Shown here one piece after another: positions 1,446 through 46,917 of a stretch of 64,000 nt of DNA (its first letter is position 1; every line of letters starts with the position of its first letter). Under the pieces are notes generated by a model. The model had not been told where the DNA came from. It did not search any database and saw nothing but the letters and a program-made list of their open reading frames with translations. The position numbers and the translations under genes were made by a program. The DNA is from a virus (lineage: Duplodnaviria; Caudoviricetes), in the IMG/VR virus record IMGVR_UViG_3300032050_000002; one strand, given 5' to 3'.

Positions 1446-4013
1446 ATGGCAAATATAAAGATATCGGCGTTACCAAGTGTCCAACCAAGTGGTTATACGA
1501 ATGACGATTTATTGGTAATAGTAAATTATGACGTTTCAAGTGGGACAACAAAGAATACACCTTTAAGTGGATTAACTTCTTATATATTAAGTGGAGTAAC
1601 ATTTCCAACAGATTATCTTCCGTTAAGTGGTGGGACAGTTACAGGTGATACAATATTTAATCAAGGTTTAACCGCAACAACAATATCCGCATCAACATAC
1701 TTAGGACTACCTTTAGATGTTTATGTTACGGGGGGAACTTATTCTGGAGGAACAATAACGTTTACAAATAATAGTGGTGGAACATTTCCTGTATCAGGAA
1801 TAACTTCAAATGAGGGAAATCAATGGTTAATACCAACTGGAGATACCGTTACCGTTAATTCAAATTATCAATATTTCATATATGGTGATATAATAGTTCA
1901 GGGTACTTTAATACTCGAAACTAATAGTCAGTTAGTAGTTGTTAATGGAGATGTTATAAATAGTGGAGGAACAATCACAAATAACGGAACAATATCCGAT
2001 ATTGAAATTCCTTTATTTGATACGAAAGTTACTGGTGGAACGTATTCTGCCGGAACAATAACATTTACAAATAATAGTGGGGGAACTTTCACGGTTACAG
2101 GAATTACCGCAACTGGCGGAGGAACATTTACTGGAGGAACGGTTAGTGGAGATACAATTTTTAGTAGTGGATTAACCGCAACTACGATATCCGCATCAAC
2201 ATACTTAGGTTTGCCTTTAGATATATATGTGACCGGAGGTACATATAGTGCTAGTTCATCTACAATTATATTTACAAATAATTCCGGTGGTACTTTTGAT
2301 GTCACGGGAGTGACTGCTTCGGGTGGAGGAACATTTACAGGAGGAACTGTAACTGGGGAAACAATATTTCAAAGTGGGATAACCGCAACAACAATTTCAG
2401 CAACATCTTTAACAGTTGATTATATTGATTTTAATATAACCGCAAATACCACTCATCAGGAAGGAAGAATTCATTGGAATGATGCTCTAAAAACTTTAGA
2501 GGTTGATACAGAAAATGCCGGTGTGCAACTAAAAGTGGGACATGAATTAGTTGTGAGAGTTAACAATCAGACTGGTTCACCAATTCCAAAAGGAAGTGCG
2601 GTTTATATAAACGGAGAACAAGGACAAAGACCCACAATAACTTTGGCAAGTTTTACGGCAGATAGTACATCCGCAGCAGTTGTTGGTCTAACAATGACTC
2701 AAATAAATAACAATAATAATGGTTATGTAATTGTTGGGGGTGTATTAGAAGGTCTTGACACCTCTTCTTATACCGCAGGAACGCCATTGTATCTTTATAC
2801 AGGAGGAACCTTAACTTCAACAAAGCCACAAGCCCCTGACCATGATGTTAGAATTGGTAAGGTAGTTGTTTCAAACGCAACAACAGGTTCTATATATGTT
2901 TCCATTCAAAATGGTTATGAATTAGATGAATTACATGATGCTAGAATTACAAATAAATCTGTTGGAGATTTATTAACAGTTAGTGGGTATAACGGATATG
3001 ATTTATGGGTTAATTCAAAAACATTAAACGGTTCATATACAATAACCGGAGATACTACGATAGGTCAAGGATTAACCGCGACAACAATATCGGGAGGAAC
3101 AATATATGGTAGTGGTTTGGGTTTAATAAATATTCCTATTTCTGGTGTTACCAATCTACAAACATCATTAAATAATAAATTTGATATAACAGGTGGAACT
3201 ATTAATGGAAATTTAACTGTAACCGGAAATACAAATTTACAAACATTTACTGCGGGAACAGGAACTATTAACGGTAATTTAACTGTAACAGGAAATACTA
3301 TTTTAACATCCGTTACAGGAAATAGTTTAAATATAACCGGAAATACAATAATATCTTCTTTTACAGGAGGTTCGGGAACAATTAACGGTAATTTAAATGT
3401 AACTGGAAATACCTCAATGACAGGAACATTAAATGTTACGGGTAATACAAACGTGAGAGCGTTTACAGGTACTACGGGATATTTTTCTGGAACAGGTCAG
3501 AACGTGTTAACAGTTATTGGTTCAGGTAATAGCACATCGTCACCAATATTTTCGGTTATAGGAAATGGAACTAGCGCGGAATTATTTAGTGTTACAGATT
3601 CTTTTTCAGGTTCGTTATTTTCGGTTAACGATATTTCAGGATTATCGATATTAGATGTTAACTCTGATAGTACAATTTTGATGGGTAATTATTTAGCTCC
3701 GTCATTAAACACAACAACAAGAACAAGTCTAACCGCAGGAACTACCACGGTTTATTCAATACCGACAAGTGCCTATACAGGAGCGTTTTTTGATTATACT
3801 TTAATTAGTACGGGAAGCACAGGTGCTAGAGCGGGAACGATAATGTCAATATGGAGTGGGTCAAGCTCTCAGTTTACTGAGGTTTCAACTAACGATATTG
3901 GTGTTACAACTGGAGTTACTTTCACAGTTGCGGTTTCAGGAAATAATGCGGTGTTAAGTAGTTCGGCAACAACAACGGGTTGGACATTAAAAACAATAGT
4001 TAGAAGTATATGA
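1446..4013 (+). CDS. Tail fibre / virion fibre protein with Gly-Thr repeats
   Basis: 855 aa. Repeated TATTISASTYLGLPLD.YVTGGTYS.GTITFTNNSGGTF modules, a central beta-clip-like segment (KGSAVYING...AVVGL...GTPLYL...RIGKVV) and GTINGNLTVTGNT repeats. Confidence 0.7.
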   Translation: MANIKISALPSVQPSGYTNDDLLVIVNYDVSSGTTKNTPLSGLTSYILSGVTFPTDYLPLSGGTVTGDTIFNQGLTATTISASTYLGLPLDVYVTGGTYSGGTITFTNNSGGTFPVSGITSNEGNQWLIPTGDTVTVNSNYQYFIYGDIIVQGTLILETNSQLVVVNGDVINSGGTITNNGTISDIEIPLFDTKVTGGTYSAGTITFTNNSGGTFTVTGITATGGGTFTGGTVSGDTIFSSGLTATTISASTYLGLPLDIYVTGGTYSASSSTIIFTNNSGGTFDVTGVTASGGGTFTGGTVTGETIFQSGITATTISATSLTVDYIDFNITANTTHQEGRIHWNDALKTLEVDTENAGVQLKVGHELVVRVNNQTGSPIPKGSAVYINGEQGQRPTITLASFTADSTSAAVVGLTMTQINNNNNGYVIVGGVLEGLDTSSYTAGTPLYLYTGGTLTSTKPQAPDHDVRIGKVVVSNATTGSIYVSIQNGYELDELHDARITNKSVGDLLTVSGYNGYDLWVNSKTLNGSYTITGDTTIGQGLTATTISGGTIYGSGLGLINIPISGVTNLQTSLNNKFDITGGTINGNLTVTGNTNLQTFTAGTGTINGNLTVTGNTILTSVTGNSLNITGNTIISSFTGGSGTINGNLNVTGNTSMTGTLNVTGNTNVRAFTGTTGYFSGTGQNVLTVIGSGNSTSSPIFSVIGNGTSAELFSVTDSFSGSLFSVNDISGLSILDVNSDSTILMGNYLAPSLNTTTRTSLTAGTTTVYSIPTSAYTGAFFDYTLISTGSTGARAGTIMSIWSGSSSQFTEVSTNDIGVTTGVTFTVAVSGNNAVLSSSATTTGWTLKTIVRSI

Positions 4014-4696
4014 GTTTTAGTTACGGACAAAAAATAGTAACAAATGGATTGGTTTTATATCTAGATGCCGCAAATATTAGGTCATACCCAAAAACCGGAA
4101 ATACTTGGTATGATTTAAGTATTGGTACTAATACTGGTACTTTAAATAGTGGTTCAACATTTAATACCTCAAATGGTGGTAGTATTGTTTTTGATGGTAC
4201 AGATGATAATGTAAATTGTGGAAACAATTCAATATTAGATGTTGGAAATAACATTACGGTAAACGCTTGGATTTTTTTACCGAGTACTGGTGCGACAACA
4301 GGTTATAGACCGATAGTATCTAAAGTTGTTAGTGGAGCCACTGTTGGTTGGGAAATGGGTGTTAGTATTGGAAAATTAAGATGTGTCTTCAGGCCGACCT
4401 CAAATATTATAGACCTTACTGGACCTGATTTATCTATAGGTGTTTGGCAAATGTGTACATTTAGTTATGATAACTTAACCACTAAGTTATATCTAAATGG
4501 GGTTTTAAGAACCTCAACATCAAGTGGTGGTCCTGTTATATTAGATTCATCACAACCATTTCAAATAGCGACAAGAGGAATCGGAGGAAATACGTTTTTA
4601 GGTAGGATATCACAAGTCTCGATGTATAATCGAGCCTTATCTTCATCAGAAATTTTACAAAACTATAATTCGACAAAAGCGAGATTTCAATTATGA
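4010..4696 (+). CDS. LamG / concanavalin A-like lectin-domain virion protein (paralogue 1)
   Basis: KIVTNGLVLYLDA start, FDGTDD, W....YD...KLYLNG, GRISQVSMYNRALS..EILQNY. ATGA overlap with the upstream gene. Confidence 0.8.
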   Translation: MSFSYGQKIVTNGLVLYLDAANIRSYPKTGNTWYDLSIGTNTGTLNSGSTFNTSNGGSIVFDGTDDNVNCGNNSILDVGNNITVNAWIFLPSTGATTGYRPIVSKVVSGATVGWEMGVSIGKLRCVFRPTSNIIDLTGPDLSIGVWQMCTFSYDNLTTKLYLNGVLRTSTSSGGPVILDSSQPFQIATRGIGGNTFLGRISQVSMYNRALSSSEILQNYNSTKARFQL

Positions 4697-5451
4697 GCGG
4701 AAGTATTGTAAGTTCAAAAATAGTTACAAATGGATTAGTATTATACTTAGACGCGGTTAATACTCTTTCGTATCCAAAAACCGGAAATACTTGGTATGAT
4801 TTAACAACCAATGGGTTTATTGGTCAACTAAACAACACCCCCTTATTTGTAACAACAGGTGGAACTTCTTTTTCTTTTGACGGTACCAATGAAAATGTTA
4901 ATTTAGGTAATCTGTCATCACTTTCTTTTACTAGTGGGACATTTTCCGTTGAGATTTGGGTTAATGTTCCAAGTAGTTGGTCTGGACCTGCAAACATAAA
5001 TCAATATCCTAATTTAATTAGTAAAGGAGCTAACGCTGGATGGGACACAAATGGGTGGTCATTACATTGTTTTAGAGGGGTGTTAAGTTCTGACCCCAAA
5101 GTTATTGGGTTAGGGATTAAAAATGGGTCTAATCTTGTTACATCATCCACACAAATAACATTAGAAAATACAGATTTAGATAGATTCATATGTGTATCAG
5201 TAACTATGGATTTAACCTCTATTAAAATTTTTAAAAACGGAATACTTAATAAAACGGTAACATCTTTAACTTCGCCATTAGGAAACCCTTTAGTAGGTCC
5301 TGCGGAAAATTCATCAAATGTTGTTATCGCAAGCGGTCCATCGTCACAATATTTTCCTGGTAAGATATCTAACATTAAATTATATGATAGAAAATTAAGT
5401 GATTCTGAAGTTTTACAAAATTATAACTCAACTAAAGTAAGATATATTTAA
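4693..5451 (+). CDS. LamG / concanavalin A-like lectin-domain virion protein (paralogue 2)
   Basis: Same N-terminal KIVTNGLVLYLDA and C-terminal GKISNIKLYDRKLSDSEVLQNY motifs. Confidence 0.8.
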   Translation: MSGSIVSSKIVTNGLVLYLDAVNTLSYPKTGNTWYDLTTNGFIGQLNNTPLFVTTGGTSFSFDGTNENVNLGNLSSLSFTSGTFSVEIWVNVPSSWSGPANINQYPNLISKGANAGWDTNGWSLHCFRGVLSSDPKVIGLGIKNGSNLVTSSTQITLENTDLDRFICVSVTMDLTSIKIFKNGILNKTVTSLTSPLGNPLVGPAENSSNVVIASGPSSQYFPGKISNIKLYDRKLSDSEVLQNYNSTKVRYI

Positions 5452-5456
5452 TTAAT

Positions 5457-5720
5457 ATGGAAACACAATTATACGAGAATAGAAAATTTATGATATTTAA
5501 TGTATCTGAATTAGAATTAATAGATTTTACACAAGTATGTGAAACTTCAATTGACACGGTTAGAAAAAGTGTTGATGGTGATAAAACATTTGTTAAATGG
5601 GACACCGAAGGAATTCCTTCATCAGTGGATAGTTTAACAACTAAAGAAGGTCCTTATACTTATGAAGAAATTTTAAACATACTATCAACTTCAGAATGGA
5701 CTGATGTAACAATAATATGA
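5457..5720 (+). CDS. Small acidic hypothetical protein, possible fibre assembly chaperone
   Basis: 87 aa embedded in the lectin cluster, ending YTYEEILNILSTSEWT. Function inferred from context only. Confidence 0.45.
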   Translation: METQLYENRKFMIFNVSELELIDFTQVCETSIDTVRKSVDGDKTFVKWDTEGIPSSVDSLTTKEGPYTYEEILNILSTSEWTDVTII

Positions 5721-6460
5721 GTACAGTAGGAAATTGGCAAGGTCCAAAAATAGTTAAAGAGGAGTTAGTTTTATATTTAGATGCGGGTTCTCCCAATTCT
5801 TATTTTGATAAAACAAGCACAACTTGGAGAGATATTAGTGGATATGGTAACAACGCCACATTACTAAATGGGGTAACGTATAGTTCAAATAATGGCGGTG
5901 TTTTTATTTTTGACGGTACTGATGATGCGGCCAGAGTCTCACCAAACGCAATCTATAGAAATTTTACAAATGCAACTTTTAGTATATGGTGTACATTCTC
6001 AACACTATCTACTAATAGTATCTATACTTTAATAAATAATGGAATCCAATCAACTGATAGTCATTTTTGGTTATATTATGATAATAGGACTTCATTACCA
6101 TCTAATGTTAATAGAATAGGTTTTGAGTGGGGTAATGGCACTAATAGAACTGGTTTACTATCAACATCAACTTTAATTCCTGTTTTAAATAATTGGTATA
6201 ATATTGTGGCAACTTTTGATAACGGAACTTCAATAATTTATGTTAATGGAGTTGTGTTTGGTAGTGGTACAACATTAGTAACAACAATAGCCGGAGTTGC
6301 CGCGGCTCAAATATATACAGGAGGTTATTTTTCCGCCGGTCCTTCGGGAATACAATTATCTTGGCCGGGAAATTTAAATCAACATTTAATATATAGAAAA
6401 ACATTATCTCAATCAGAAGTTTTACAAAACTACAACGTAACAAAATATAGATATTTATAA
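5717..6460 (+). CDS. LamG / concanavalin A-like lectin-domain virion protein (paralogue 3)
   Basis: KIVKEELVLYLDAG, FDGTDD, WYNIVATFDNG..IYVNG, LSQSEVLQNY. Confidence 0.8.
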   Translation: MSTVGNWQGPKIVKEELVLYLDAGSPNSYFDKTSTTWRDISGYGNNATLLNGVTYSSNNGGVFIFDGTDDAARVSPNAIYRNFTNATFSIWCTFSTLSTNSIYTLINNGIQSTDSHFWLYYDNRTSLPSNVNRIGFEWGNGTNRTGLLSTSTLIPVLNNWYNIVATFDNGTSIIYVNGVVFGSGTTLVTTIAGVAAAQIYTGGYFSAGPSGIQLSWPGNLNQHLIYRKTLSQSEVLQNYNVTKYRYL

Positions 6461-11089: not shown

Positions 11090-11469
11090 TCCAACTTAAT
11101 ACCATCGGACGAAATTATATACCAGTTGTTTTCAATTAAAACCATCTCAACACAAGCACCCTTACTTATATTAAGTTCATCATAGTACTCATCTATCTTT
11201 CCGATAGATGGGGTTATGGTAACGTTTGTTAATACTTTAATAATAAGGTGGTCGGATTTAGAATTGTCTAAAACTAAATTACAATGTTCGGCATTTTTGA
11301 TTAAAATTAAATCTTCACCATTTGTTTTATACGAAGATTCGGTTACGACTTTTTTTAAAAACTCAGGCACTAACGGAATAAGTTTCTCAAAATATTCAAT
11401 CTCTTTATGTTGTTTAATATTATAGGTTTTATCACCAATTTTTTTCCTAACCAATGTCGATTTTATCAT
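11086..11469 (-). CDS. Hypothetical protein, small beta-rich domain
   Basis: 127 aa, ATGA-coupled to the neck gene. VTITP..GKID...VEMVL..NNWYII resembles fibre-associated beta-sandwich repeats. Confidence 0.5.
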   Translation of the reverse strand: MIKSTLVRKKIGDKTYNIKQHKEIEYFEKLIPLVPEFLKKVVTESSYKTNGEDLILIKNAEHCNLVLDNSKSDHLIIKVLTNVTITPSIGKIDEYYDELNISKGACVEMVLIENNWYIISSDGIKLD

Positions 11470-12587
11470 ATTACATAAATTTGTCTTGGCATTGCGGTAA
11501 ATTTCTTTTGTTTGTTTAAGTTTTCCGCAAGTAACGCCTCACGCTCCATTACTTTTTCAGGTCTTAATCTTGTTAATCTACCCTCAGCACCTGTTAATTC
11601 CTCAATTAATTTAGTTTTTTCGTCTTTTGACTCAGTCGCTAAAGATTGGTAATCCATTGTTAATTCAGAATCAGGAGTTTTTAAATTACCGCTATATTTT
11701 CCTCTTACCTTTGATAAGGTTTCTTTACAATATGCAATAAACCATCTTCTAACCCATTGTTGTGCTGGGTTATTAAGGTCTGCCCAACTAATCTTTTCAA
11801 ACGGAACATCAGAAGGTAATCTAATAATATCAGGATTGTCCTTCAAACATTTATCTCTATCAGGACCATCAACCTCATAATACCAATACCAAACCTTACC
11901 TCTCATTAATGTAGAATTTCCAAAATCAAATTTACCACCTGGTACATTCATAAGGTGAATTGCCTTCTTTCCTTCAGGAAGTGCGGTAACTCTATATGTT
12001 AATTCTCCCGCAATAATTCTTCTTTGTATATTAATCTCTTGCATTCTTAATAACATATCAAAGGCAGGCATCATAAAATATGAGCCCGAATAACCAAACT
12101 GAGAATAACCAGCGGGTCCTCCCAAACCAACACCACCTAATGCTCCAAATGTCCAAGGGTCAAATAATAAATTATTTAACTCAGCCGGAGTAAACCATAA
12201 TAATTCATTTAATTCTCTACCGGCAGGAATTTCGTACATTTGTTGTCCTTTAACTAATTGTATGTAATCTTTTTTAAGAACAGAATCTCCTCCCGCTTGC
12301 AATCCAACAATTTTCGAATACGCGTAAGTATATCTTTGTTCGTAATCTAAACTTTTTGTGGTAAATGCTTTAGATAAAGATTGAGTATCTAAATTTAAAT
12401 TATAAAGTGATGTCCATTGAGATTCAATTAACCAATCTTGGACATATTGCGAATAATCGTCTATTGAGAATTCTAATAGAGTGTCCATTTGTTCATCCTC
12501 TAATTCAATAGACCTTAAAGGAGCACCTAATAAGTGTCTAACTTTACGATATAAATCGCTTCTTTCTGGTTCTGCAATGATTGACAT
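11466..12587 (-). CDS. Neck protein (T4 gp13-like head-tail adaptor)
   Basis: N-terminal RHLLGAPLRSIELEDEQMD and C-terminal WVRRWFIAYCKETLSKVRGKY pattern typical of gp13-like proteins. Confidence 0.7.
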   Translation of the reverse strand: MSIIAEPERSDLYRKVRHLLGAPLRSIELEDEQMDTLLEFSIDDYSQYVQDWLIESQWTSLYNLNLDTQSLSKAFTTKSLDYEQRYTYAYSKIVGLQAGGDSVLKKDYIQLVKGQQMYEIPAGRELNELLWFTPAELNNLLFDPWTFGALGGVGLGGPAGYSQFGYSGSYFMMPAFDMLLRMQEINIQRRIIAGELTYRVTALPEGKKAIHLMNVPGGKFDFGNSTLMRGKVWYWYYEVDGPDRDKCLKDNPDIIRLPSDVPFEKISWADLNNPAQQWVRRWFIAYCKETLSKVRGKYSGNLKTPDSELTMDYQSLATESKDEKTKLIEELTGAEGRLTRLRPEKVMEREALLAENLNKQKKFTAMPRQIYVI

Positions 12588-12611: not shown

Positions 12612-14132
12612 TCAATCTATCTTAAAAACTAAATCACTCTTATTTAAGACAAAATTTCCTTCAACAATTTCGGTATTTGAATTATCAAACACATATATTT
12701 TTTTTCTATTTGTGAATATTAACCAATCTGTTTCATATTCCTTAACTCCACCAGTTTCGATAAAATTAACTTTATCCCCGTCAAGTTTAATATCTTTAAA
12801 AGGTTTAACTTGAGCGGTCTTTTTACTTCCATTATAAATAATTTCACAATCAACTCCTTGTAATGTATCACTAAGATTACCAATACTAGCAATCTTTTTA
12901 ACATTATCGTTACCAAGTCTTTCTTTTAATTTTTTAACAACATAGTCTTCGTTAGTATCACCAAAACCACCTGTCTTTTTAACGGTATCCATTAACGATT
13001 TAAATGTTGATGATTCGGGATTAAAGATTCTATTTTTAAAATAAGTTATTGCGTTTAATAATCTTGTAAGTTGTTCATCATTGTTTTCAACATTAAAGGT
13101 TATTGGTCTTTTCTTCATTGTGAAAAGAACTTTATTTATGTCGTTAACTAAGATACAAAAACAGGTATAATTTGTATTAACTCTATTAAATATTGAACGA
13201 CCGGGTTCTCCCATAAAATCGTATAAACCTCTTAATGTCCCTGGAGCATATTCATTTCTTTTATAATAGTTGTCAGGAAACACCTCAGACAAAGTTTTCT
13301 CAATCCATTCGTTAAAATCTTTCTTAATATTTGGGTACTTGTTAAATAACTCTCTATAAAAAGAGTTTTCTCTTGTACTACATTTTTCATCCACCGATTC
13401 CGACAAAATAATTCTTCTAAAATAATTTTCGTTTAATGTTGTTTTGGTTTTCATTTCATACATTTTGTTAACAAATTCCCAATTAACAAAATCCCAAAAA
13501 CCTTTTATATATTCATCCCTTTTATTTTGGTATTTTAAATAATAAGCATGTTCCCATAAATCTAAACCTAGTAAAGGATAACCACCTCTTTTAATAACAT
13601 TCATTAGTGGGTTGTCTTGATTAGGAGTTGACATAATTTTTAATCTTCCCTTTTTGGTTAAAACAAGCCACACCCATCCTGAACCAAATCTTTTTTGTGC
13701 AACATCTTCAAACCTTGTTTTAAAGTTTTTAAACGATTCAAAATGTTTATTTATTTTATCAAGTAGTTTATCGGAAGGGTTTTGTTTTTTTGGGGATAAC
13801 ATCTTCCAAAATAAAGCGTGGTTAAAAGCTCCTCCCGCATTATTTCTAATAACTTTTGGAAATCTACTTATTGATTTTACAATTTGTTCAAGTTCTAAAT
13901 CACCATAGTCTTTTTTGGATAAAGCGTCATTCAATTTCTTAACATATCCTTTATAATGTTTGTTATAATGAATATCCATTGTTTCAGAATCAATGAATTG
14001 TTTTAAAGAAGAATAAGAATAAGGTAATTTTTCAATACCGATTTTTTTCATTTCGGTTAATAAGAAATTCTTACTTTCTGACTTTTGAATTTGTTCTAAT
14101 AAAACTGATGTCTTTTCTAATATACTTTTCAC
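12612..14132 (-). CDS. sodA: Mn/Fe superoxide dismutase fused to a C-terminal PD-(D/E)xK-like domain
   Basis: HYNKHYKGY, NNAGGAFNH, FGSGWVWL, PNQDNP, DLWEHAYY. All four metal ligands present (H55, H105, D191, H195). About 270 extra C-terminal residues. GTG start at 14132; alternative ATG at 14051. Confidence 0.9.
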   Translation of the reverse strand: MKSILEKTSVLLEQIQKSESKNFLLTEMKKIGIEKLPYSYSSLKQFIDSETMDIHYNKHYKGYVKKLNDALSKKDYGDLELEQIVKSISRFPKVIRNNAGGAFNHALFWKMLSPKKQNPSDKLLDKINKHFESFKNFKTRFEDVAQKRFGSGWVWLVLTKKGRLKIMSTPNQDNPLMNVIKRGGYPLLGLDLWEHAYYLKYQNKRDEYIKGFWDFVNWEFVNKMYEMKTKTTLNENYFRRIILSESVDEKCSTRENSFYRELFNKYPNIKKDFNEWIEKTLSEVFPDNYYKRNEYAPGTLRGLYDFMGEPGRSIFNRVNTNYTCFCILVNDINKVLFTMKKRPITFNVENNDEQLTRLLNAITYFKNRIFNPESSTFKSLMDTVKKTGGFGDTNEDYVVKKLKERLGNDNVKKIASIGNLSDTLQGVDCEIIYNGSKKTAQVKPFKDIKLDGDKVNFIETGGVKEYETDWLIFTNRKKIYVFDNSNTEIVEGNFVLNKSDLVFKID

Positions 14133-14155
14133 AAATATTTATTTTATAATAAATA

Positions 14156-15919
14156 TTATGTTATTGAATTAATTTTATTCATAATCTGTTCTACGATATC
14201 ACCTTTATCTAAATTGTCACCCATTACAGTTTCAATTACAGATTTCTTTGAGTTTACAATATCATATATTGACCCCTCAATAGTATTTTCAAATATTGGG
14301 TAATAAACAAGGACATTATTTTTTTGACCATATCTATACGCTCTATCTTCGGCTTGAGATAAATCACCAGGAACAAATGATAGGTCATTAATGATTACCG
14401 ATTCCGCCGCGGTTAATGTTAACCCAACTCCTGCCGCCTTAACGTTACCAACAAATACTTTTATTTTATCGTTTTCTTGGAATTGGTCAACCGCATATTG
14501 TCTTTGTGGTTTAGAAGAACTTCCGTCTAATCTTACCGCTTGTTTACCAAAGTGGTCGGCAATACGATTTAAAGTATCTGTAAAGTTTGTGAATATGATA
14601 ACTTTCTTTTCTTGGTCAATTATGTTTTGAGCAAGTTCAATAGTATGTTCTATTTTTTCTTCAGCAATTACTTGTCTTACTTTCATAAGTTTTGTAAACT
14701 GAATTGTTAGCGATTTTGATTCCTCACCCTTTGTTCTATACCAATCAAAGTATTCTCCCATTAACCCTTCATATAATTTAGACCTCAACCTTAAATAAAC
14801 GGGGGTAATAATCTTTTCAGGTAAATCCAATACTTCCGTTTTCAATCTTCTTAATACTTGTTTTGAAGTTCTATCTCTTAGTTCTTCTAAGTTAGACGCT
14901 CCTGATACATTCCAAATCTTTCTGTTACCGGCTTTAAATTGATACCCTTGACAATATCTGATAGCGTAAGCCATCCAATTCTGAGCAACAGGACTTTCAA
15001 TTAGTTGAAGTAAATTGAAATAATTCATTGGTCTGTTTGTCATTGGTGTTCCTGTTAATAACCAAAGAGTATCGGCTTTTTTAGAAAAATGATTTACGAG
15101 TTTTGTTCTTTGAGCTTGGCCATTTTGAATGTAATGAGCCTCATCAATTATAATAAGTTCAGGTTTAAACTTACCAATAAATGAATTATCTTTATCTTTT
15201 AAATCATAAAAGTTTTTAAGGATATCGTAATTAGTAATTACAAAATCGTGTTCTAATGAAAAGTTTTTACCCTCACAAATAAAAATACTTCTGTCCGTAT
15301 AGTTTCTAATCTCCCTTTCCCAATTAATCTTTAAAGATGCGGGACAGATAATTAAGACTTTTTTAGCATTTGTTTCTAAAGCGGCGATAGTCGCTGAGGT
15401 AGTTTTACCAACACCCATATCATCCGCCAATATAAATCTTTTAGAACCAACCAATTTTTCTATCGCCTCTTTTTGATGATTTAAGGGTGGTCTATGAGAA
15501 TATTTAAAGTAGTCAATTTCGACCACTTTAGTTGTGTGAGTTTTTAGTAAGGCTCCTTTGGGTAACCAAAAATCGTGTATTGTTTCACCCGAAAAAACTT
15601 TACCCCAAATATGATAGGATTTTTCTTTTTCTGATAATAACTTCTCAACCCAAACTTCAGTTGGTATTTCAGTATATAATTTCTCATCGGCAATTTTCTT
15701 TGCGAAGTATGGGTCTAAATCGACCCACTTCTTAGCAACCCTTGGTGTTTTGTTGTGATTGTTAATTATATATTCTGATTGTGAACGAGTGGGATAAAAC
15801 TTTTTGTTAGTATCTTTTTGGTGTTTTAATTTTAATATAAAATTATTTGCACCATCATATGAATCCAATAAAGATAATGCGGTGTGTTCGATAAGATTAT
15901 TTGTCAGACCTGAAGTCAC
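14156..15919 (-). CDS. SNF2/SWI2-family helicase/translocase
   Basis: LADDMGVGKT, IIDEAH, LLTGTP, GVGLTLTAA, QAEDRAYRYGQ. Confidence 0.9.
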   Translation of the reverse strand: MTSGLTNNLIEHTALSLLDSYDGANNFILKLKHQKDTNKKFYPTRSQSEYIINNHNKTPRVAKKWVDLDPYFAKKIADEKLYTEIPTEVWVEKLLSEKEKSYHIWGKVFSGETIHDFWLPKGALLKTHTTKVVEIDYFKYSHRPPLNHQKEAIEKLVGSKRFILADDMGVGKTTSATIAALETNAKKVLIICPASLKINWEREIRNYTDRSIFICEGKNFSLEHDFVITNYDILKNFYDLKDKDNSFIGKFKPELIIIDEAHYIQNGQAQRTKLVNHFSKKADTLWLLTGTPMTNRPMNYFNLLQLIESPVAQNWMAYAIRYCQGYQFKAGNRKIWNVSGASNLEELRDRTSKQVLRRLKTEVLDLPEKIITPVYLRLRSKLYEGLMGEYFDWYRTKGEESKSLTIQFTKLMKVRQVIAEEKIEHTIELAQNIIDQEKKVIIFTNFTDTLNRIADHFGKQAVRLDGSSSKPQRQYAVDQFQENDKIKVFVGNVKAAGVGLTLTAAESVIINDLSFVPGDLSQAEDRAYRYGQKNNVLVYYPIFENTIEGSIYDIVNSKKSVIETVMGDNLDKGDIVEQIMNKINSIT

Positions 15920-43544: not shown

Positions 43545-44492
43545 ATGGAAAAAATATTAAAAGAGAATCCAAACAGGTTTGTTATATTTCCAATCGAATA
43601 TAATGATATTTGGGAATACTATAAACAACACCAAGCCGCTTTTTGGACGGCAGAAGAAATTGATTTAACGGGAGATATTCGAGATTGGGAAAACCTTTCA
43701 GATAATGAAAGATATTTCATCAAAAATATTTTATCGTTTTTCGCCGCGTCAGACGGTATTGTAAATGAAAATCTGGCAGAAAATTTCTACAGAGAAGTTC
43801 AATATCCTGAGGCTAAATTCTTCTATGGATTTCAGTTGATGATGGAGAACATACACTCATTAATGTATTCTTTATTAATTGATACTTATGTCTCTAACCC
43901 CAAAGAAAAAGATGATTGCTTTAACGCAATCGACAAGTTACCTGCGGTTCAAAAAAAGGCTACGTGGGCTCTTGAATGGATTAAAAACGCATCTTTCCAA
44001 GAAAGATTGGTGGCATTTGCCGCGGTAGAAGGAATATTCTTCTCAGGTTCTTTCTGTTCTGTATTTTGGTTAAAATCAAGAGGAATTATGCAAGGTTTGT
44101 GTAACGCAAACGCATTAATATTTAAAGATGAAAACTTACATTGTGATTTCGCAATTCATTTGTTAAACAATCACGTTGAAGATAAACCAAGCGAGAAACG
44201 AATTAAAGAAATTTTATTGTCCGCATTAGAAATTGAAAAGGAATTTATCACCGAATCATTACCGGTATCATTAATAGGTATGAATTCAAATCTAATGAAA
44301 CAATATTTGGAATTTGTGGTAGACGGTCTACTTGTTAAATTGGGTTGTAAAAAACAATTTAATGTAGAACAACCATTCAAGTTTATGGAACAAATTGCCG
44401 TTGAAACCAAAGGAAACTTCTTTGAATCAAGAACCGTTGAGTACCAAAAGGCTAAATTAAATGAAACAATTAATTTTACAGAAGATTTTTAA
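43545..44492 (+). CDS. nrdB: Ribonucleotide reductase class Ia beta subunit
   Basis: [29 protein letters not shown] (radical Tyr), VEGIFF, DENLH. Confidence 0.95.
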
Positions 44493-44493
44493 C

Positions 44494-46917
44494 ATGATGT
44501 CACTAAAGATTAAAAAAAGAAGTGGAGAGGAAGTATCTTTTAACCCACAAAAGATTTATAATAGAATTAAAAAGGCCGCAAAAGGATTAAATGTTAATTC
44601 TGATGAGATTTTTATTAAAGTTATAACATCAGTTCCTGTTGAGGGGCATATCACAACAAAAGAATTAGACAAATTAGTGTATGAGATTGCCGCCGCTTAT
44701 ACTGGTAGTCATCACGACTATTCCCGTTTAGCGTCTTCAGTTGCGATATCATCTTATCATAAAGAAACTAATCCAAGTTTTTACGAGACTATGGAAGAAC
44801 TTTATGAAGCCGGTATTGTTAACAAAGATTTCATTATTTTAATGCAAATGTTTGGTAAAGAAAAAATTGATTCCATAATAAATCACGACAATGATTATAA
44901 TTTTGATTATTTTGCTTGGAGGTCGCTGCAAGAAATGTATCTTTTAAAGTTACCTAACGGTAAAACTATTGAAAGACCACAACATATGTATATGAGAGTT
45001 GCGTTATGGGTAACAAATAGCTTTGATGATGCTATTGAGTACTATAAGTCATTATCAAATCAGTTAATTTCTCCGGCAACACCAATTATGATTAACGCAG
45101 GAACAAAAGTACCTCAGTTAGCATCGTGTGTATTACACTACAACAACTCAGATTCAAGAGAAGGACTCCTTCAAACAATGAATGACATCTCAACTTACTC
45201 ATCTGACGCTGCCGGTATCGGTTTATCTATGAGTAACATTAGAAGTAAAGAAAGTAGAATATCAACTTCAGGGGGATTTGCGGGAGGGTTATTAAAATAC
45301 CTTAAAATTGTTAACGAGTCATTAAGATTTTTTAATCAACAAGGCAGAAGACCCGGTAGTGCCGCAATTTACCTTGAACCTTGGCATAAAGATATTTTTG
45401 ACCTATTAGAAATTAAAAAGAATACGGGAGCGGAAGAATTAAGAGCGAGAGATTTATTTACTGCACTTTGGATTCCTGACAATTTTATGAGAGCGGTTAA
45501 GAACAATGAAGACTGGTATTTATTCTGTCCTAACGACATTAAAAAGGCGGGTATTAAACCACTACAAGAATGTTATGGTGATGAATACGAATCCAATTAC
45601 GCTCTTGCCGTTTCAATGGGACTTGGAAAAAAAGTTAAAGCTCAAGATGTTTGGACTAAAGTTATTGAATCTCAAGTTGAAACAGGAGTTCCTTATTTAT
45701 GTTCAAAAGATAATGCTAATAAAAAGACTAATCATCAAAACATTGGAGTTATTAAACAATCGAATTTATGTAATGAGATTTATCAATATACTGATGAGAA
45801 AACGACCGCTATCTGCACACTATCTTCAATGGTATTAAAAAACTTTATTGTTGACGGTAAATTTGATTTTAAGTTACTATATGATGAAACAAGAAAAGTT
45901 GTAAAAGCACTAAACAAAGTGGTTGACGTAAATAATTATTCAACCGAAAAAGGTAAAAAAGGTGGGTTAGAACAGAGAGCAATTGCAATAGGAACACAAG
46001 GACTTGCGGATGTTTTCTACTTAATGGATTATGGATTTACATCGCCTGAAGCGAAAAAACTAAATAAGTTTATTTTTGAAACTATATATTTTGCCGCAAT
46101 TACAGAAAGTAATGATTTATGTAAAAACGGAAAAAGAAAACCATATGAGTTCTTTGACGGTTCACCAATGTCAAAAGGTGTATTTCAGTTTGATATGTGG
46201 GGATTAAAAGATATTGATTTATCAGGAATGTGGGATTGGACTCAATTAAAAGAAGATGTTAAAAATTATGGTGTGTGTAACTCATTATTCACAGCACAAA
46301 TGCCTGTAGCGTCATCAGCAAAAATTACTGGTTCGTATGAAATGACAGAACCCGCTCATTCGGCAATTTTTAATAGAAGAGTTGTTGGAGGTGAGATTAT
46401 GATTGTTAACAAATACTTAATTAACGATTTTGAAAAACTTGGTATTTGGTGTGAAGACCTAAAAAATGAAATCATTTTAAATGAGGGGTCAATACAAGGA
46501 ATTAATTTTAATAATTACTTAGATGTTGAAGATAAAAATTATCATAAAAAAGTTAAACGTATTGAAAATTTAATACCAAAATACAAAACAATTTGGGAAA
46601 TTTCACAAAGAGAATTAATTGATATGGCGGCAGATAGAGCACCATTCATTGACCAATCACAATCAATGAATATATACATGAGTAACCCTACTCTATCAAA
46701 AATAACATCATCACACTTCCATTCTTGGGAGAAAGGTTTAAAAACTTTATGTTATTATGTTAGAACTAAAGCAATCTCAACGGGAGCAAAACATTTAGCG
46801 GTTGATATCTCAAAAATAGAAAAACCTAAAACAACTCCTGAAGCACCAAAGGTAGATTTTAAATTACCTGAAAAACCTAAAAACAGTGAATTTGAATGTT
46901 TTGGATGTTCTTCTTAA
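44494..46917 (+). CDS. nrdA: Ribonucleotide reductase class I alpha subunit with ATP cone
   Basis: KIKKRSG ATP cone, SPATP, LASC, QQGRRPG, SNLCNE, YYVRT, C-terminal CFGC. Start moved to 44494 (or 44497), after the nrdB stop. Confidence 0.95.
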   Translation: MMSLKIKKRSGEEVSFNPQKIYNRIKKAAKGLNVNSDEIFIKVITSVPVEGHITTKELDKLVYEIAAAYTGSHHDYSRLASSVAISSYHKETNPSFYETMEELYEAGIVNKDFIILMQMFGKEKIDSIINHDNDYNFDYFAWRSLQEMYLLKLPNGKTIERPQHMYMRVALWVTNSFDDAIEYYKSLSNQLISPATPIMINAGTKVPQLASCVLHYNNSDSREGLLQTMNDISTYSSDAAGIGLSMSNIRSKESRISTSGGFAGGLLKYLKIVNESLRFFNQQGRRPGSAAIYLEPWHKDIFDLLEIKKNTGAEELRARDLFTALWIPDNFMRAVKNNEDWYLFCPNDIKKAGIKPLQECYGDEYESNYALAVSMGLGKKVKAQDVWTKVIESQVETGVPYLCSKDNANKKTNHQNIGVIKQSNLCNEIYQYTDEKTTAICTLSSMVLKNFIVDGKFDFKLLYDETRKVVKALNKVVDVNNYSTEKGKKGGLEQRAIAIGTQGLADVFYLMDYGFTSPEAKKLNKFIFETIYFAAITESNDLCKNGKRKPYEFFDGSPMSKGVFQFDMWGLKDIDLSGMWDWTQLKEDVKNYGVCNSLFTAQMPVASSAKITGSYEMTEPAHSAIFNRRVVGGEIMIVNKYLINDFEKLGIWCEDLKNEIILNEGSIQGINFNNYLDVEDKNYHKKVKRIENLIPKYKTIWEISQRELIDMAADRAPFIDQSQSMNIYMSNPTLSKITSSHFHSWEKGLKTLCYYVRTKAISTGAKHLAVDISKIEKPKTTPEAPKVDFKLPEKPKNSEFECFGCSS

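What the first reader, a model, noticed from the sequence alone, without database searches (positions are those of the whole stretch)
12612..14132. Mn-type superoxide dismutase fused to an Mrr-like nuclease domain and punctuated by candidate prohead-protease sites
Seen: a complete SOD (residues about 28-228; ligands H55/H105/D191/H195, Tyr63; GG and NQD signatures typical of Mn or cambialistic enzymes). It is preceded by a 27-aa leader ending L-T-E exactly where bacterial SODs begin, followed by a linker with L-N-E (233-235) and L-S-E (243-245), then a 260-aa domain with a helix E395, GVD428 and Q441-V-K. Known: T4 gp21 cleaves head proteins after (I/L)-x-E; E...D...QxK is the Mrr-type variant of the PD-(D/E)xK nuclease site; superoxide inactivates the tyrosyl radical of class Ia RNR, which this phage encodes. 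Inference: a polyprotein packaged in the head and cut into a free SOD and a free nuclease-fold protein delivered at infection, countering oxidative stress or ROS-linked defence while attacking or binding host DNA. I know of no described SOD-nuclease polyprotein of this type, but could not search.
Basis: partly seen in the sequence, partly recalled or inferred. Interest (0 to 1): 0.8.

Follow-up and report, generated by a model that had tools for sequence, protein, structure and literature searches.

The report
Phage SOD-nuclease protein with cut-site junctions
An uncultured T4-like jumbo phage encodes a superoxide dismutase joined to a restriction-enzyme-like domain, with short conserved motifs at each junction that match the cutting preference of the phage's own head-maturation protease, so it may be a cargo precursor packed into the capsid, though no experiment shows this yet.

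Summary
ORF 12612-14132(-) encodes 506 aa:
- a 27-aa amphipathic leader;
- a complete Mn-type Fe/Mn SOD (28-228, all four ligands);
- a 17-aa linker;
- a helical subdomain (246-387);
- a PD-(D/E)xK nuclease-fold domain (388-506) with invariant E395, D428 and Q441-x-K443.

The three (L/I)-x-E motifs are almost invariant in 77 homologues. They lie in the only two low-confidence segments of the full-length model. The phage has an intact T4 gp21-type prohead protease and a full T4-type head module.

The gene sits between an SNF2 helicase and the gp13-like neck gene. In relatives this slot holds leader+body, leader+SOD+body, leader+SOD+helical half, or SOD joined to unrelated domains. All 168 relatives that could be scored have (L/I/V/M)-x-E directly before the SOD.

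Cleavage, packaging and ejection remain inferred. The leader is specific to this gene family, not a tag shared across the phage. "Mrr-like" is supported only for the D...QxK site variant. The fusion is common in metagenomes (annotated only as SOD), and I found no paper describing it. First-stage notes of this scan flagged the same kind of fusion in several other genomes.

Verdict: a real feature, a new variant of known kinds, with a plausible but untested mechanism.

The parts
14149..14155 (-). TATTTAT promoter-like motif, 23 nt upstream of the GTG start and directly after the stop codon of the SNF2 helicase gene
   Evidence: Sequence read. The same motif lies 13-32 nt upstream of the gp13-like, protease, core, scaffold-like and TerL genes, and within 40 nt of 56 of 215 ORFs. 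It also precedes the DnaB-like helicase, so it suggests a late or structural class but does not prove it.
12612..14132 (-). Whole gene, 506 codons plus stop (P0001)
14052..14132 (-). Leader, residues 1-27: an amphipathic helix (L/I at 4, 11, 15; I/V at 8), then a disordered stretch ending F-L-L-T-E27
   Evidence: Conservation in 77 homologues. pLDDT<50 at 20-28. A leader HMM built from fusions recovers the N-termini of about 35 standalone relatives above decoys, but no other protein of this phage.
13449..14051 (-). Fe/Mn superoxide dismutase domain, residues 28-228, Mn-type signatures
   Evidence: Pfam, NCBIfam, PDB Mn-SOD alignment, ligand residues
13398..13448 (-). Linker, residues 229-245, carrying L233-N-E235 and L243-S-E245
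   Evidence: E235 in 77/77 and E245 in 76/77. pLDDT<50 at 232-246. E245 is also kept in the standalone relatives.
12972..13397 (-). Helical subdomain, residues 246-387, with the conserved block G-R-S-x-x-N-x-x-N-T-N-Y..F-C..D-x-N; no confident structural match
   Evidence: Model (pLDDT mostly >85). Invariant columns. Only weak hits (TssK, Z about 4). It was not folded on its own.
12615..12971 (-). PD-(D/E)xK nuclease-fold domain, residues 388-506, with E395 (helix), D428 (start of beta-2) and Q441-x-K443 (beta-3)
   Evidence: VIA-align gives Z 7.9 for Hjc, 7.7 for NhoI, 7.5 for I-Ssp6803I and 7.3 for HhaI over model 160-278. Foldseek PDB, AFDB and BFVD hits are PD-(D/E)xK proteins. The tetrad is intact in 100 of 109 standalone relatives.
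11466..12587 (-). Downstream neighbour: gp13-like neck (head-completion) protein, 373 aa, with its own TATTTAT motif
   Evidence: phrog_211 head-tail adaptor. The syntenic homologue carries PF26809 Phage_T4_gp13. Motif.
14156..15919 (-). Upstream neighbour: SNF2-family helicase, 587 aa
   Evidence: Pfam SNF2-rel_dom and Helicase_C. It is the conserved left border of the variable slot.

Best explanation
The gene encodes a modular precursor. It is probably made with the phage's structural proteins, taken into the prohead, and cut by the T4 gp21-type prohead protease after E27, E235 and/or E245. Cutting would remove the 27-aa leader and separate a Mn-type SOD from a two-part protein made of a helical subdomain and a PD-(D/E)xK nuclease fold. 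Both products would then sit in the capsid and enter the host with the DNA.

Shown:
- the identity of the domains;
- near-invariance of three (L/I)-x-E motifs in the only disordered segments;
- an intact gp21-type protease and a T4-type head module in the same genome;
- (L/I)-x-E clustering in the capsid protein's propeptide;
- a variable genomic slot in which modules are swapped at exactly these junctions.

Inferred: cleavage, packaging, ejection and the roles after entry. Those roles would be SOD lowering superoxide early in infection, and the nuclease-fold protein cutting or binding DNA.
For: 1. The genome encodes Peptidase_S77 (80.9 bits, above the cut-off). It aligns to T4 gp21 (5JBL) with the His, Ser and Asp motifs present. 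It sits beside gp20 portal, gp23 capsid and TerL genes.
2. Internal control. The capsid protein has five (L/I)-x-E motifs in its first 60 residues against about 0.8 expected, the last one (I-N-E60) just before the conserved mature region. A 238-aa core-like protein has 10 sites (3.0 expected) and a 500-aa acidic scaffold-like protein has 13 (6.3 expected).
3. In 77 homologues P3 and P1 of all three sites are kept while P2 and the flanks vary. All 168 relatives that could be scored have (L/I/V/M)-x-E directly before the SOD's Met.
4. The sites lie in the only pLDDT<50 segments of a model that is otherwise confident.
5. Five architectures occupy the same SNF2-to-gp13 slot, with junction motifs retained. 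This resembles the variable T4 internal-protein loci, which share only a targeting sequence (PMC3012670).
6. The gene has its own TATTTAT motif, as do the neck, protease, core, scaffold-like and terminase genes.
7. gp21 removes short N-terminal propeptides from Alt and the internal proteins, cutting after Glu (PMC5694885). A virion-packaged SOD is documented for chlorovirus PBCV-1 (PMC7019647).
Against: - There are no proteomic or biochemical data, and no cultured relative carries the gene.
- (L/I)-x-E is a low-information motif in a K/E/I/L-rich proteome, at 0.0127 per residue.
- The leader is specific to this gene family and matches no other protein of the phage. The T4 targeting sequence, by contrast, is shared among cargo proteins.
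- The promoter-like motif also precedes a replication helicase. The neighbourhood mixes replication genes (SNF2, PolB) with structural genes.
- M28 is kept in 76/77 homologues, which could mean an internal start that yields a leaderless protein.
- An active nuclease packed next to the genome would need the phage DNA to be resistant, or the enzyme to be held inactive.
- The complex prediction of the protease with the linker gave no verdict.
Confidence: 0.5

Rival explanations
1. It is an unprocessed cytoplasmic bifunctional enzyme. The SOD is tethered to a DNA-binding or DNA-cutting module and acts in the infected cell, for example protecting replicating phage DNA or the phage's class I RNR radical from superoxide. 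The leader helix and linkers are structural or oligomerisation elements, and their Glu residues are conserved for reasons unrelated to proteolysis.
For: - The gene follows an SNF2 helicase and lies near PolB and RNR genes.
- The leader has a heptad-like hydrophobic pattern compatible with a coiled coil.
- The leader is not shared with other proteins of the phage.
- AlphaFold draws the linker as a continuation of the SOD's last helix.
- Phage SOD genes without such leaders exist, e.g. PA5oct-like and Vibrio phages.
Against: - The same three-residue pattern recurs at three independent domain boundaries, with P2 free and P3/P1 fixed. Helix capping does not predict this.
- Both segments have pLDDT<50.
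- Modules are exchanged at these junctions within one slot next to the neck gene.
- The motif equals the known specificity of the protease family this phage encodes.
Confidence: 0.3
2. The protein is processed by the prohead protease but is not an ejected effector. The leader-bearing protein is a head-completion or DNA-end-associated component working with the neighbouring gp13-like neck protein, in the way T4 gp2 binds DNA ends. The SOD is an optional passenger in some lineages.
For: - The ancestral occupant of the slot is leader plus nuclease-fold body without SOD, directly upstream of the gp13-like gene.
- The SOD is present or absent between close relatives.
- The catalytic tetrad is conserved across the wider family, which fits a DNA-directed role.
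Against: - There is no structural similarity to any known phage head or neck protein in BFVD. The hits are other uncharacterised phage proteins and small PD-(D/E)xK proteins.
- Some lineages keep SOD plus the helical half and drop the nuclease half from the slot. That would be odd for an essential structural role.
Confidence: 0.12
3. Translation starts at ATG 14051 (M28), and the 'leader' is not part of the main product.
For: - M28 is kept in 76/77 homologues, and K29 in 77/77.
- The upstream start in this phage is GTG, not ATG.
Against: - The leader is in frame, starts with Met-Lys in nearly all homologues, and shows protein-level conservation of an amphipathic pattern.
- It is homologous to the N-terminus of standalone relatives, which have no internal Met nearby.
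- The promoter-like motif lies 23 nt before the GTG, the usual spacing in this genome. It would be 104 nt from ATG 14051.
Confidence: 0.06

Closest known systems
T4 internal proteins and Alt: capsid-targeted cargo with short N-terminal propeptides removed by gp21 (PMC3012670, PMC5694885)
   Same: - A short N-terminal segment ends in (L/I)-x-E.
- A gp21-type protease is encoded in the genome.
- The locus is variable, with the cargo changing while the junction is kept.
- The cargo includes enzymes.
   Different: - The leader is 27 aa rather than about 10-20, and is not shared with other proteins of the phage.
- Here there are internal sites between two or three folded modules, i.e. a polyprotein layout.
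- Nothing has been shown experimentally.
Bacterial Mn superoxide dismutases (e.g. Deinococcus radiodurans SodA 1Y67, E. coli SodA)
   Same: - Both Pfam domains are present, with about 47% identity.
- All four metal ligands, the gateway His and Tyr, and the Mn-type Gln in N-Q-D are present.
   Different: - The protein carries a leader and about 280 extra C-terminal residues.
- It scores below the NCBIfam equivalog cut-offs (197.6 versus 363 bits).
- Metal preference is untested.
PD-(D/E)xK nucleases of the Hjc / small restriction-endonuclease type (Hjc 2WCW, NhoI 8Q5N, I-Ssp6803I 2OST, HhaI 6UKE)
   Same: - The core fold matches over about 100 residues (Z 7.3-7.9).
- An acidic residue sits in the first helix, Asp at the start of beta-2, and x-K in beta-3.
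   Different: - There is no detectable sequence similarity.
- Gln replaces the second acidic residue, giving D...QxK. From my own recollection, Mrr and TnsA are described with this variant.
- It is preceded by a conserved ~140-aa helical subdomain of unknown fold.
Chlorovirus PBCV-1 Cu/Zn SOD (A245R), late-expressed and packaged in the virion (PMC7019647)
   Same: It is a virus-encoded SOD that is carried in the particle and is thought to lower superoxide early in infection.
   Different: - It belongs to a different SOD family (Cu/Zn).
- It comes from a eukaryotic virus.
- It is not a fusion, and no protease processing is involved.

Membership tests
Fe/Mn superoxide dismutase (PF00081 + PF02777) | Both Pfam domains score above their gathering cut-offs | tested here: met
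   77.7 bits (cut-off 27) and 137 bits (cut-off 20.9)
Fe/Mn superoxide dismutase (PF00081 + PF02777) | Four metal ligands (His, His, Asp, His) plus the gateway His and Tyr | tested here: met
   H55, H105, D191, H195, H59 and Y63 are present and align to Mn-SOD 1Y67
Fe/Mn superoxide dismutase (PF00081 + PF02777) | Metal specificity (Mn versus Fe) and catalytic activity | not testable with these tools
   Mn-type signatures (Gly-Gly before N-H105; Q172 in N-Q-D) and higher scores to Mn enzymes are suggestive only
PD-(D/E)xK nuclease superfamily | Core alpha-beta-beta-beta-alpha-beta fold | tested here: met
   The model has pLDDT 86. The top ~30 VIA-align rows are nearly all PD-(D/E)xK proteins, Z up to 7.9 over 93-107 residues. 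Foldseek PDB, AFDB and BFVD hits agree. The Z values are middling, so this supports a fold-level assignment only.
PD-(D/E)xK nuclease superfamily | Acidic residue in helix 1, Asp at the start of beta-2, (D/E/Q)-x-K in beta-3 | tested here: met
   E395 lies in helix 375-406, D428 directly before strand 429-433, and Q441-V-K443 in strand 436-444. These are invariant in 74 sequences and intact in 100/109 wider relatives.
PD-(D/E)xK nuclease superfamily | Metal-dependent nuclease activity | not testable with these tools
   Needs an enzyme assay
Mrr-like restriction endonuclease (Pfam Mrr_cat) | Sequence match to the Mrr catalytic domain family | tested here: not met
   No Pfam family matches residues 229-506 even at E<=10. 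Nothing in NCBIfam. AF1548, which from my own recollection (not tested here) is Mrr-related, ranks only 27th at Z 4.4.
Mrr-like restriction endonuclease (Pfam Mrr_cat) | D...QxK variant of the active site | tested here: met
   D428-x12-Q441-x-K443 is invariant. That this variant is typical of Mrr rests on my own recollection, not on a tool result.
T4-type capsid-targeted, gp21-processed head cargo | A gp21 (Peptidase_S77) protease with catalytic residues in the same genome | tested here: met
T4-type capsid-targeted, gp21-processed head cargo | A short N-terminal propeptide ending in (L/I)-x-E before the folded body | tested here: met
   L25-T-E27 is conserved in 70-71 of 73. In 168/168 relatives the motif directly precedes the SOD.
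T4-type capsid-targeted, gp21-processed head cargo | The targeting sequence is shared among several different cargo proteins of the phage | tested here: not met
   The leader HMM finds no other protein in the 203-kb genome record. Other, different short (I/L)-x-E leaders do exist in the genome. The genome record is estimated to be 68% complete.
T4-type capsid-targeted, gp21-processed head cargo | Presence in the virion and cleavage at the motif | not testable with these tools
   No cultured member exists. The complex prediction gave no verdict.

The most novel reading that the evidence does not exclude
Uncultured T4-like jumbo phages carry a variable 'cargo slot' next to the neck gene. It encodes leader-tagged polyproteins made of SOD, a nuclease-fold protein and, in some lineages, a zincin-like or other domain. 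The prohead protease cuts these at (L/I)-x-E junctions into separate enzymes that are packed in the capsid and injected with the DNA. This would be the first phage-delivered antioxidant enzyme. It would also extend the T4 internal-protein system from single small proteins to multi-enzyme precursors.
Probability: 0.4. Interest if true: 0.8.

Novelty: new variant of a known kind. Interest (0 to 1): 0.62.

Why it matters
Phage SOD genes are usually filed as auxiliary metabolic genes that act in the cytoplasm. Here the SOD sits in a late-looking gene beside the neck gene. It is flanked by conserved motifs that match the phage's own head protease, and it is swapped in and out of a slot together with a nuclease-fold protein.

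If the protein is packaged and cut, three things would follow:
- Phages would be shown to pre-load an antioxidant enzyme and a DNA-directed enzyme for the first minutes of infection.
- A new targeting and processing signal would become available for capsid cargo in non-model phages.
- A large uncharacterised protein family would gain a function. That family has 435 representative clusters for the nuclease-fold body and about 2,550 SOD-containing proteins of fusion length (278-885 aa).

Even without packaging, the SOD plus PD-(D/E)xK fusion is a widespread enzyme architecture for which I found no description.

Tried and rejected
- Family and sequence searches on the C-terminal part. PHROGs, Pfam (down to E 10) and NCBIfam gave nothing. 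A profile search of PDB sequences also gave nothing.
- Window DNA. Megablast of the window against phage records gave no match.
- Leader HMM against the phage's own proteome. It matched only the gene itself, so I rejected the idea that this leader is a generic tag of the phage.
- N-terminal (L/I)-x-E enrichment across the genome. It is modest: 23 observed versus 10.9 expected at positions 7-10. The short leaders seen there are a different sequence family, so I did not use this as support.
- Complex prediction of the protease with residues 218-262. It gave no verdict (score 0.00), which counts neither for nor against.
- Remote relatives of the nuclease-fold body with other N-terminal parts (P0199, P0204, P0221, P0236, P0256). 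They have no consistent junction motif and no Pfam family. The leader/junction design is therefore confined to the close subfamily.
- Similarity to T4 gp2 or other known head or neck proteins. None was seen in BFVD.
- Literature searches for a phage-packaged SOD or an SOD-nuclease fusion. None was found.
'No known fold' is therefore not established.

Full report
**What is there.** The window's minus strand carries a 506-codon ORF at 12612-14132 with a GTG start.
- Pfam places Sod_Fe_N at residues 34-113 and Sod_Fe_C at 119-223.
- The domain aligns end to end with solved Mn-SODs. The best is Deinococcus SodA at 211 bits, and Fe enzymes score about 55 bits lower. The alignment covers residues 33-226.

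So the SOD is complete and Mn-like by sequence. Metal preference cannot be decided here.

**The C-terminal half.** Residues 229-506 match nothing in Pfam (even at E 10), PHROGs, NCBIfam or PDB sequences.
- An AlphaFold model built on 62 homologues is confident (pLDDT 86, pTM 0.77).
- Its last ~120 residues (P0001 388-506) match PD-(D/E)xK nucleases almost exclusively. Hjc gives Z 7.9, NhoI 7.7, I-Ssp6803I 7.5 and HhaI 7.3. Foldseek hits in PDB, AFDB and BFVD agree.
- E395 lies in the long helix, D428 at the start of beta-2 and Q441-x-K443 in beta-3. This is the canonical layout.
- The four residues are invariant in 74 aligned sequences and intact in 100 of 109 wider standalone relatives. The site is therefore under selection.
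- Residues 246-387 form a separate helical subdomain with a strongly conserved G-R-S..N..N-T-N-Y..F-C..D-x-N block and no confident structural match. I could not fold it alone.
- 'Mrr-like' holds only for the D...QxK variant of the site, not as family membership.

**The leader and the start codon.** The 27 residues before M28 are in frame and begin with Met-Lys in nearly all homologues. They show an amphipathic pattern, with L/I at positions 4, 11 and 15 and I/V at 8.
- An HMM built only from fusion leaders recovers the N-termini of about 35 standalone relatives of the C-terminal body. Only one of 966 decoys scored in that range.
- A TATTTAT motif lies 23 nt before the GTG, the usual spacing in this genome.
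- The GTG start is therefore favoured over ATG 14051. The near-invariant M28 leaves a small chance of an additional internal start.

**The junction motifs.** P0001 has nine (L/I)-x-E motifs. Only four are conserved: the catalytic D-L-W-E-H and the three candidate sites.
- In 77 fusion homologues, (L/I)25 is kept in 70/73, E27 in 71/73, E235 in 77/77 and E245 in 76/77. P2 and the flanks vary.
- In the full-length model the only segments with pLDDT below 50 are 20-28 and 232-246, exactly where the motifs lie.
- Three motifs in those 20 possible positions has a chance probability of about 0.002-0.004.
This includes proteins in which an extra ~130-aa domain and a leader-like segment precede the SOD.

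**The protease and the head module.** The window is part of a 203-kb viral record.
- The record encodes a Peptidase_S77 protein (80.9 bits) that aligns to T4 gp21 (5JBL) with the His, Ser and Asp motifs present.
- It lies beside gp20 portal, gp23 capsid and TerL genes.
- As an internal control, the capsid protein has five (L/I)-x-E motifs in its first 60 residues (about 0.8 expected). The last is I-N-E60, just before the conserved mature region.
- A 238-aa core-like protein and a 500-aa acidic scaffold-like protein are also enriched.
- gp21 is documented to remove N-terminal propeptides from Alt and the internal proteins, cutting after Glu (PMC5694885).
- T4 internal proteins are a diverse set that share only a capsid targeting sequence (PMC3012670).

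**Comparative context.** The fusion is common.
- 87 close hits were found for the C-terminal body, and 435 representative clusters in the exhaustive search.
- About 2,550 SOD-containing proteins of 278-885 aa are related to the leader-SOD part.
- UniProt already holds one, labelled only 'superoxide dismutase [uncultured Caudovirales phage]'.
- The gene always sits between an SNF2 helicase and the gp13-like neck gene, but its content varies:

| Content of the slot | Length |
|---|---|
| leader + body | 294 aa |
| leader + SOD + body | about 510 aa |
| leader + SOD + helical half | 394 aa |
| leader + SOD + unrelated C-terminal domain | 622 aa |
| extra N-domain + leader-like segment + SOD + other C-terminal part | about 700 aa |

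- Separate 124-127-aa proteins equal to the nuclease half also exist.
- More distant relatives of the body lack the leader and the junction motif.

The slot behaves like a variable cargo locus in which modules are exchanged at the motif-bearing junctions.

**Weighing.** The pattern is hard to explain by helix capping or linker composition. One three-residue motif with free P2 sits at three boundaries, in disordered segments. It is kept through module swaps, and it matches the specificity of a protease family that the phage encodes. I therefore favour processing by the prohead protease, which implies entry into the prohead (confidence 0.5). Against it:
- There is no proteomic evidence and no cultured relative. 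The closest capsid proteins are only 41-43% identical and those phages lack the gene.
- The motif carries little information.
- The leader is specific to this family, not shared.
- The promoter-like motif also precedes a DnaB-like helicase.
- A packaged active nuclease would need the phage DNA to be protected.
- The complex prediction gave no verdict.

The main rival is an uncut cytoplasmic bifunctional enzyme (0.3). A class I RNR is indeed encoded in the window, but nothing links it to the SOD beyond general biochemistry.

**Novelty.** I found no paper describing a phage-packaged SOD or an SOD-nuclease fusion. The nearest precedent for a packaged viral SOD is the Cu/Zn enzyme of chlorovirus PBCV-1 (PMC7019647). 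First-stage notes of this scan flagged the same or related fusions in several other genomes and many (I/L)-x-E leaders in this genome. I treated these as leads and tested the parts that bear on this gene. I rate the finding a new variant of known kinds. The domains and the targeting-and-cleavage logic are known, but their combination in a widespread, modular locus next to the neck gene is not described.

Noticed in passing
window 43545-46917 (+): Class I ribonucleotide reductase pair: a small chain (PF00268, 360 bits) and a large chain with an ATP-cone (PF02867, 548 bits).
   Followed up: partly
own genome G000, many sites; e.g. window 14149-14155 and upstream of window 12587: A TATTTAT motif lies within 40 nt upstream of 56 of 215 crude ORFs, mostly 11-32 nt before the start. 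It precedes the protease, core, scaffold-like, TerL and neck genes, and the sheath and tube genes at 44-48 nt. It also precedes the DnaB-like helicase. It is probably a phage promoter element.
   Followed up: partly
G000:C1 117813, 118099, 120545, 127468, 158672, 160227, 181167, 189827 (ORF starts): Several otherwise unrelated ORFs begin with a similar short leader of the type MK..(I/L)(I/T)E-x-(E/Q)-(K/L)-x-R-(I/L). This is a different sequence family from the SOD leader. (L/I)-x-E is enriched at residues 7-10 of ORFs (23 observed versus 10.9 expected).
   Followed up: partly
L005:5373-7283 (-) = G000:C1:122872-124782: The major capsid protein is 636 aa, against about 520 aa for T4 gp23 (from my own recollection). 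The Pfam Gp23 match is in two stretches, so there may be an insertion domain. The N-terminal 60 residues hold five (L/I)-x-E motifs.
   Followed up: partly
L007:2633-5491 (+): In a related phage the SNF2 helicase bordering the slot is 952 aa instead of about 590 aa. It has a faint LAGLIDADG_3 hit, which may mean an intein or a homing-endonuclease insertion.
   Followed up: no
proteins P0347, P0350, P0365, P0368, P0352 (relatives; e.g. L007:6001-8100): The ~700-aa variants carry an extra N-terminal ~130-aa domain containing E-D-E-A-N-A-F-A-G-R. Other first-stage notes of this scan read it as zincin/IrrE-like. Pfam gave only a weak DUF6055 hit for one of them.
   Followed up: partly
window 4010-6460 (+): Three tandem paralogous genes (228, 252 and 247 aa) all match phrog_24074 and phrog_8510 (virion structural protein).
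   Followed up: no
proteins P0157, P0158, P0160 and the 394-aa class (L006:4129-5313): The C-terminal body is split in some lineages. SOD plus the helical half remains in the slot, while free-standing 124-127-aa proteins equal to the nuclease half exist elsewhere. This suggests the two subdomains are separable modules.
   Followed up: partly
whole record G000: IMG/VR classes the 203-kb record as 'provirus', at 68% estimated completeness. The same protein is also seen on a 307,689-bp contig, so the true genome may be larger than the record held.
   Followed up: no
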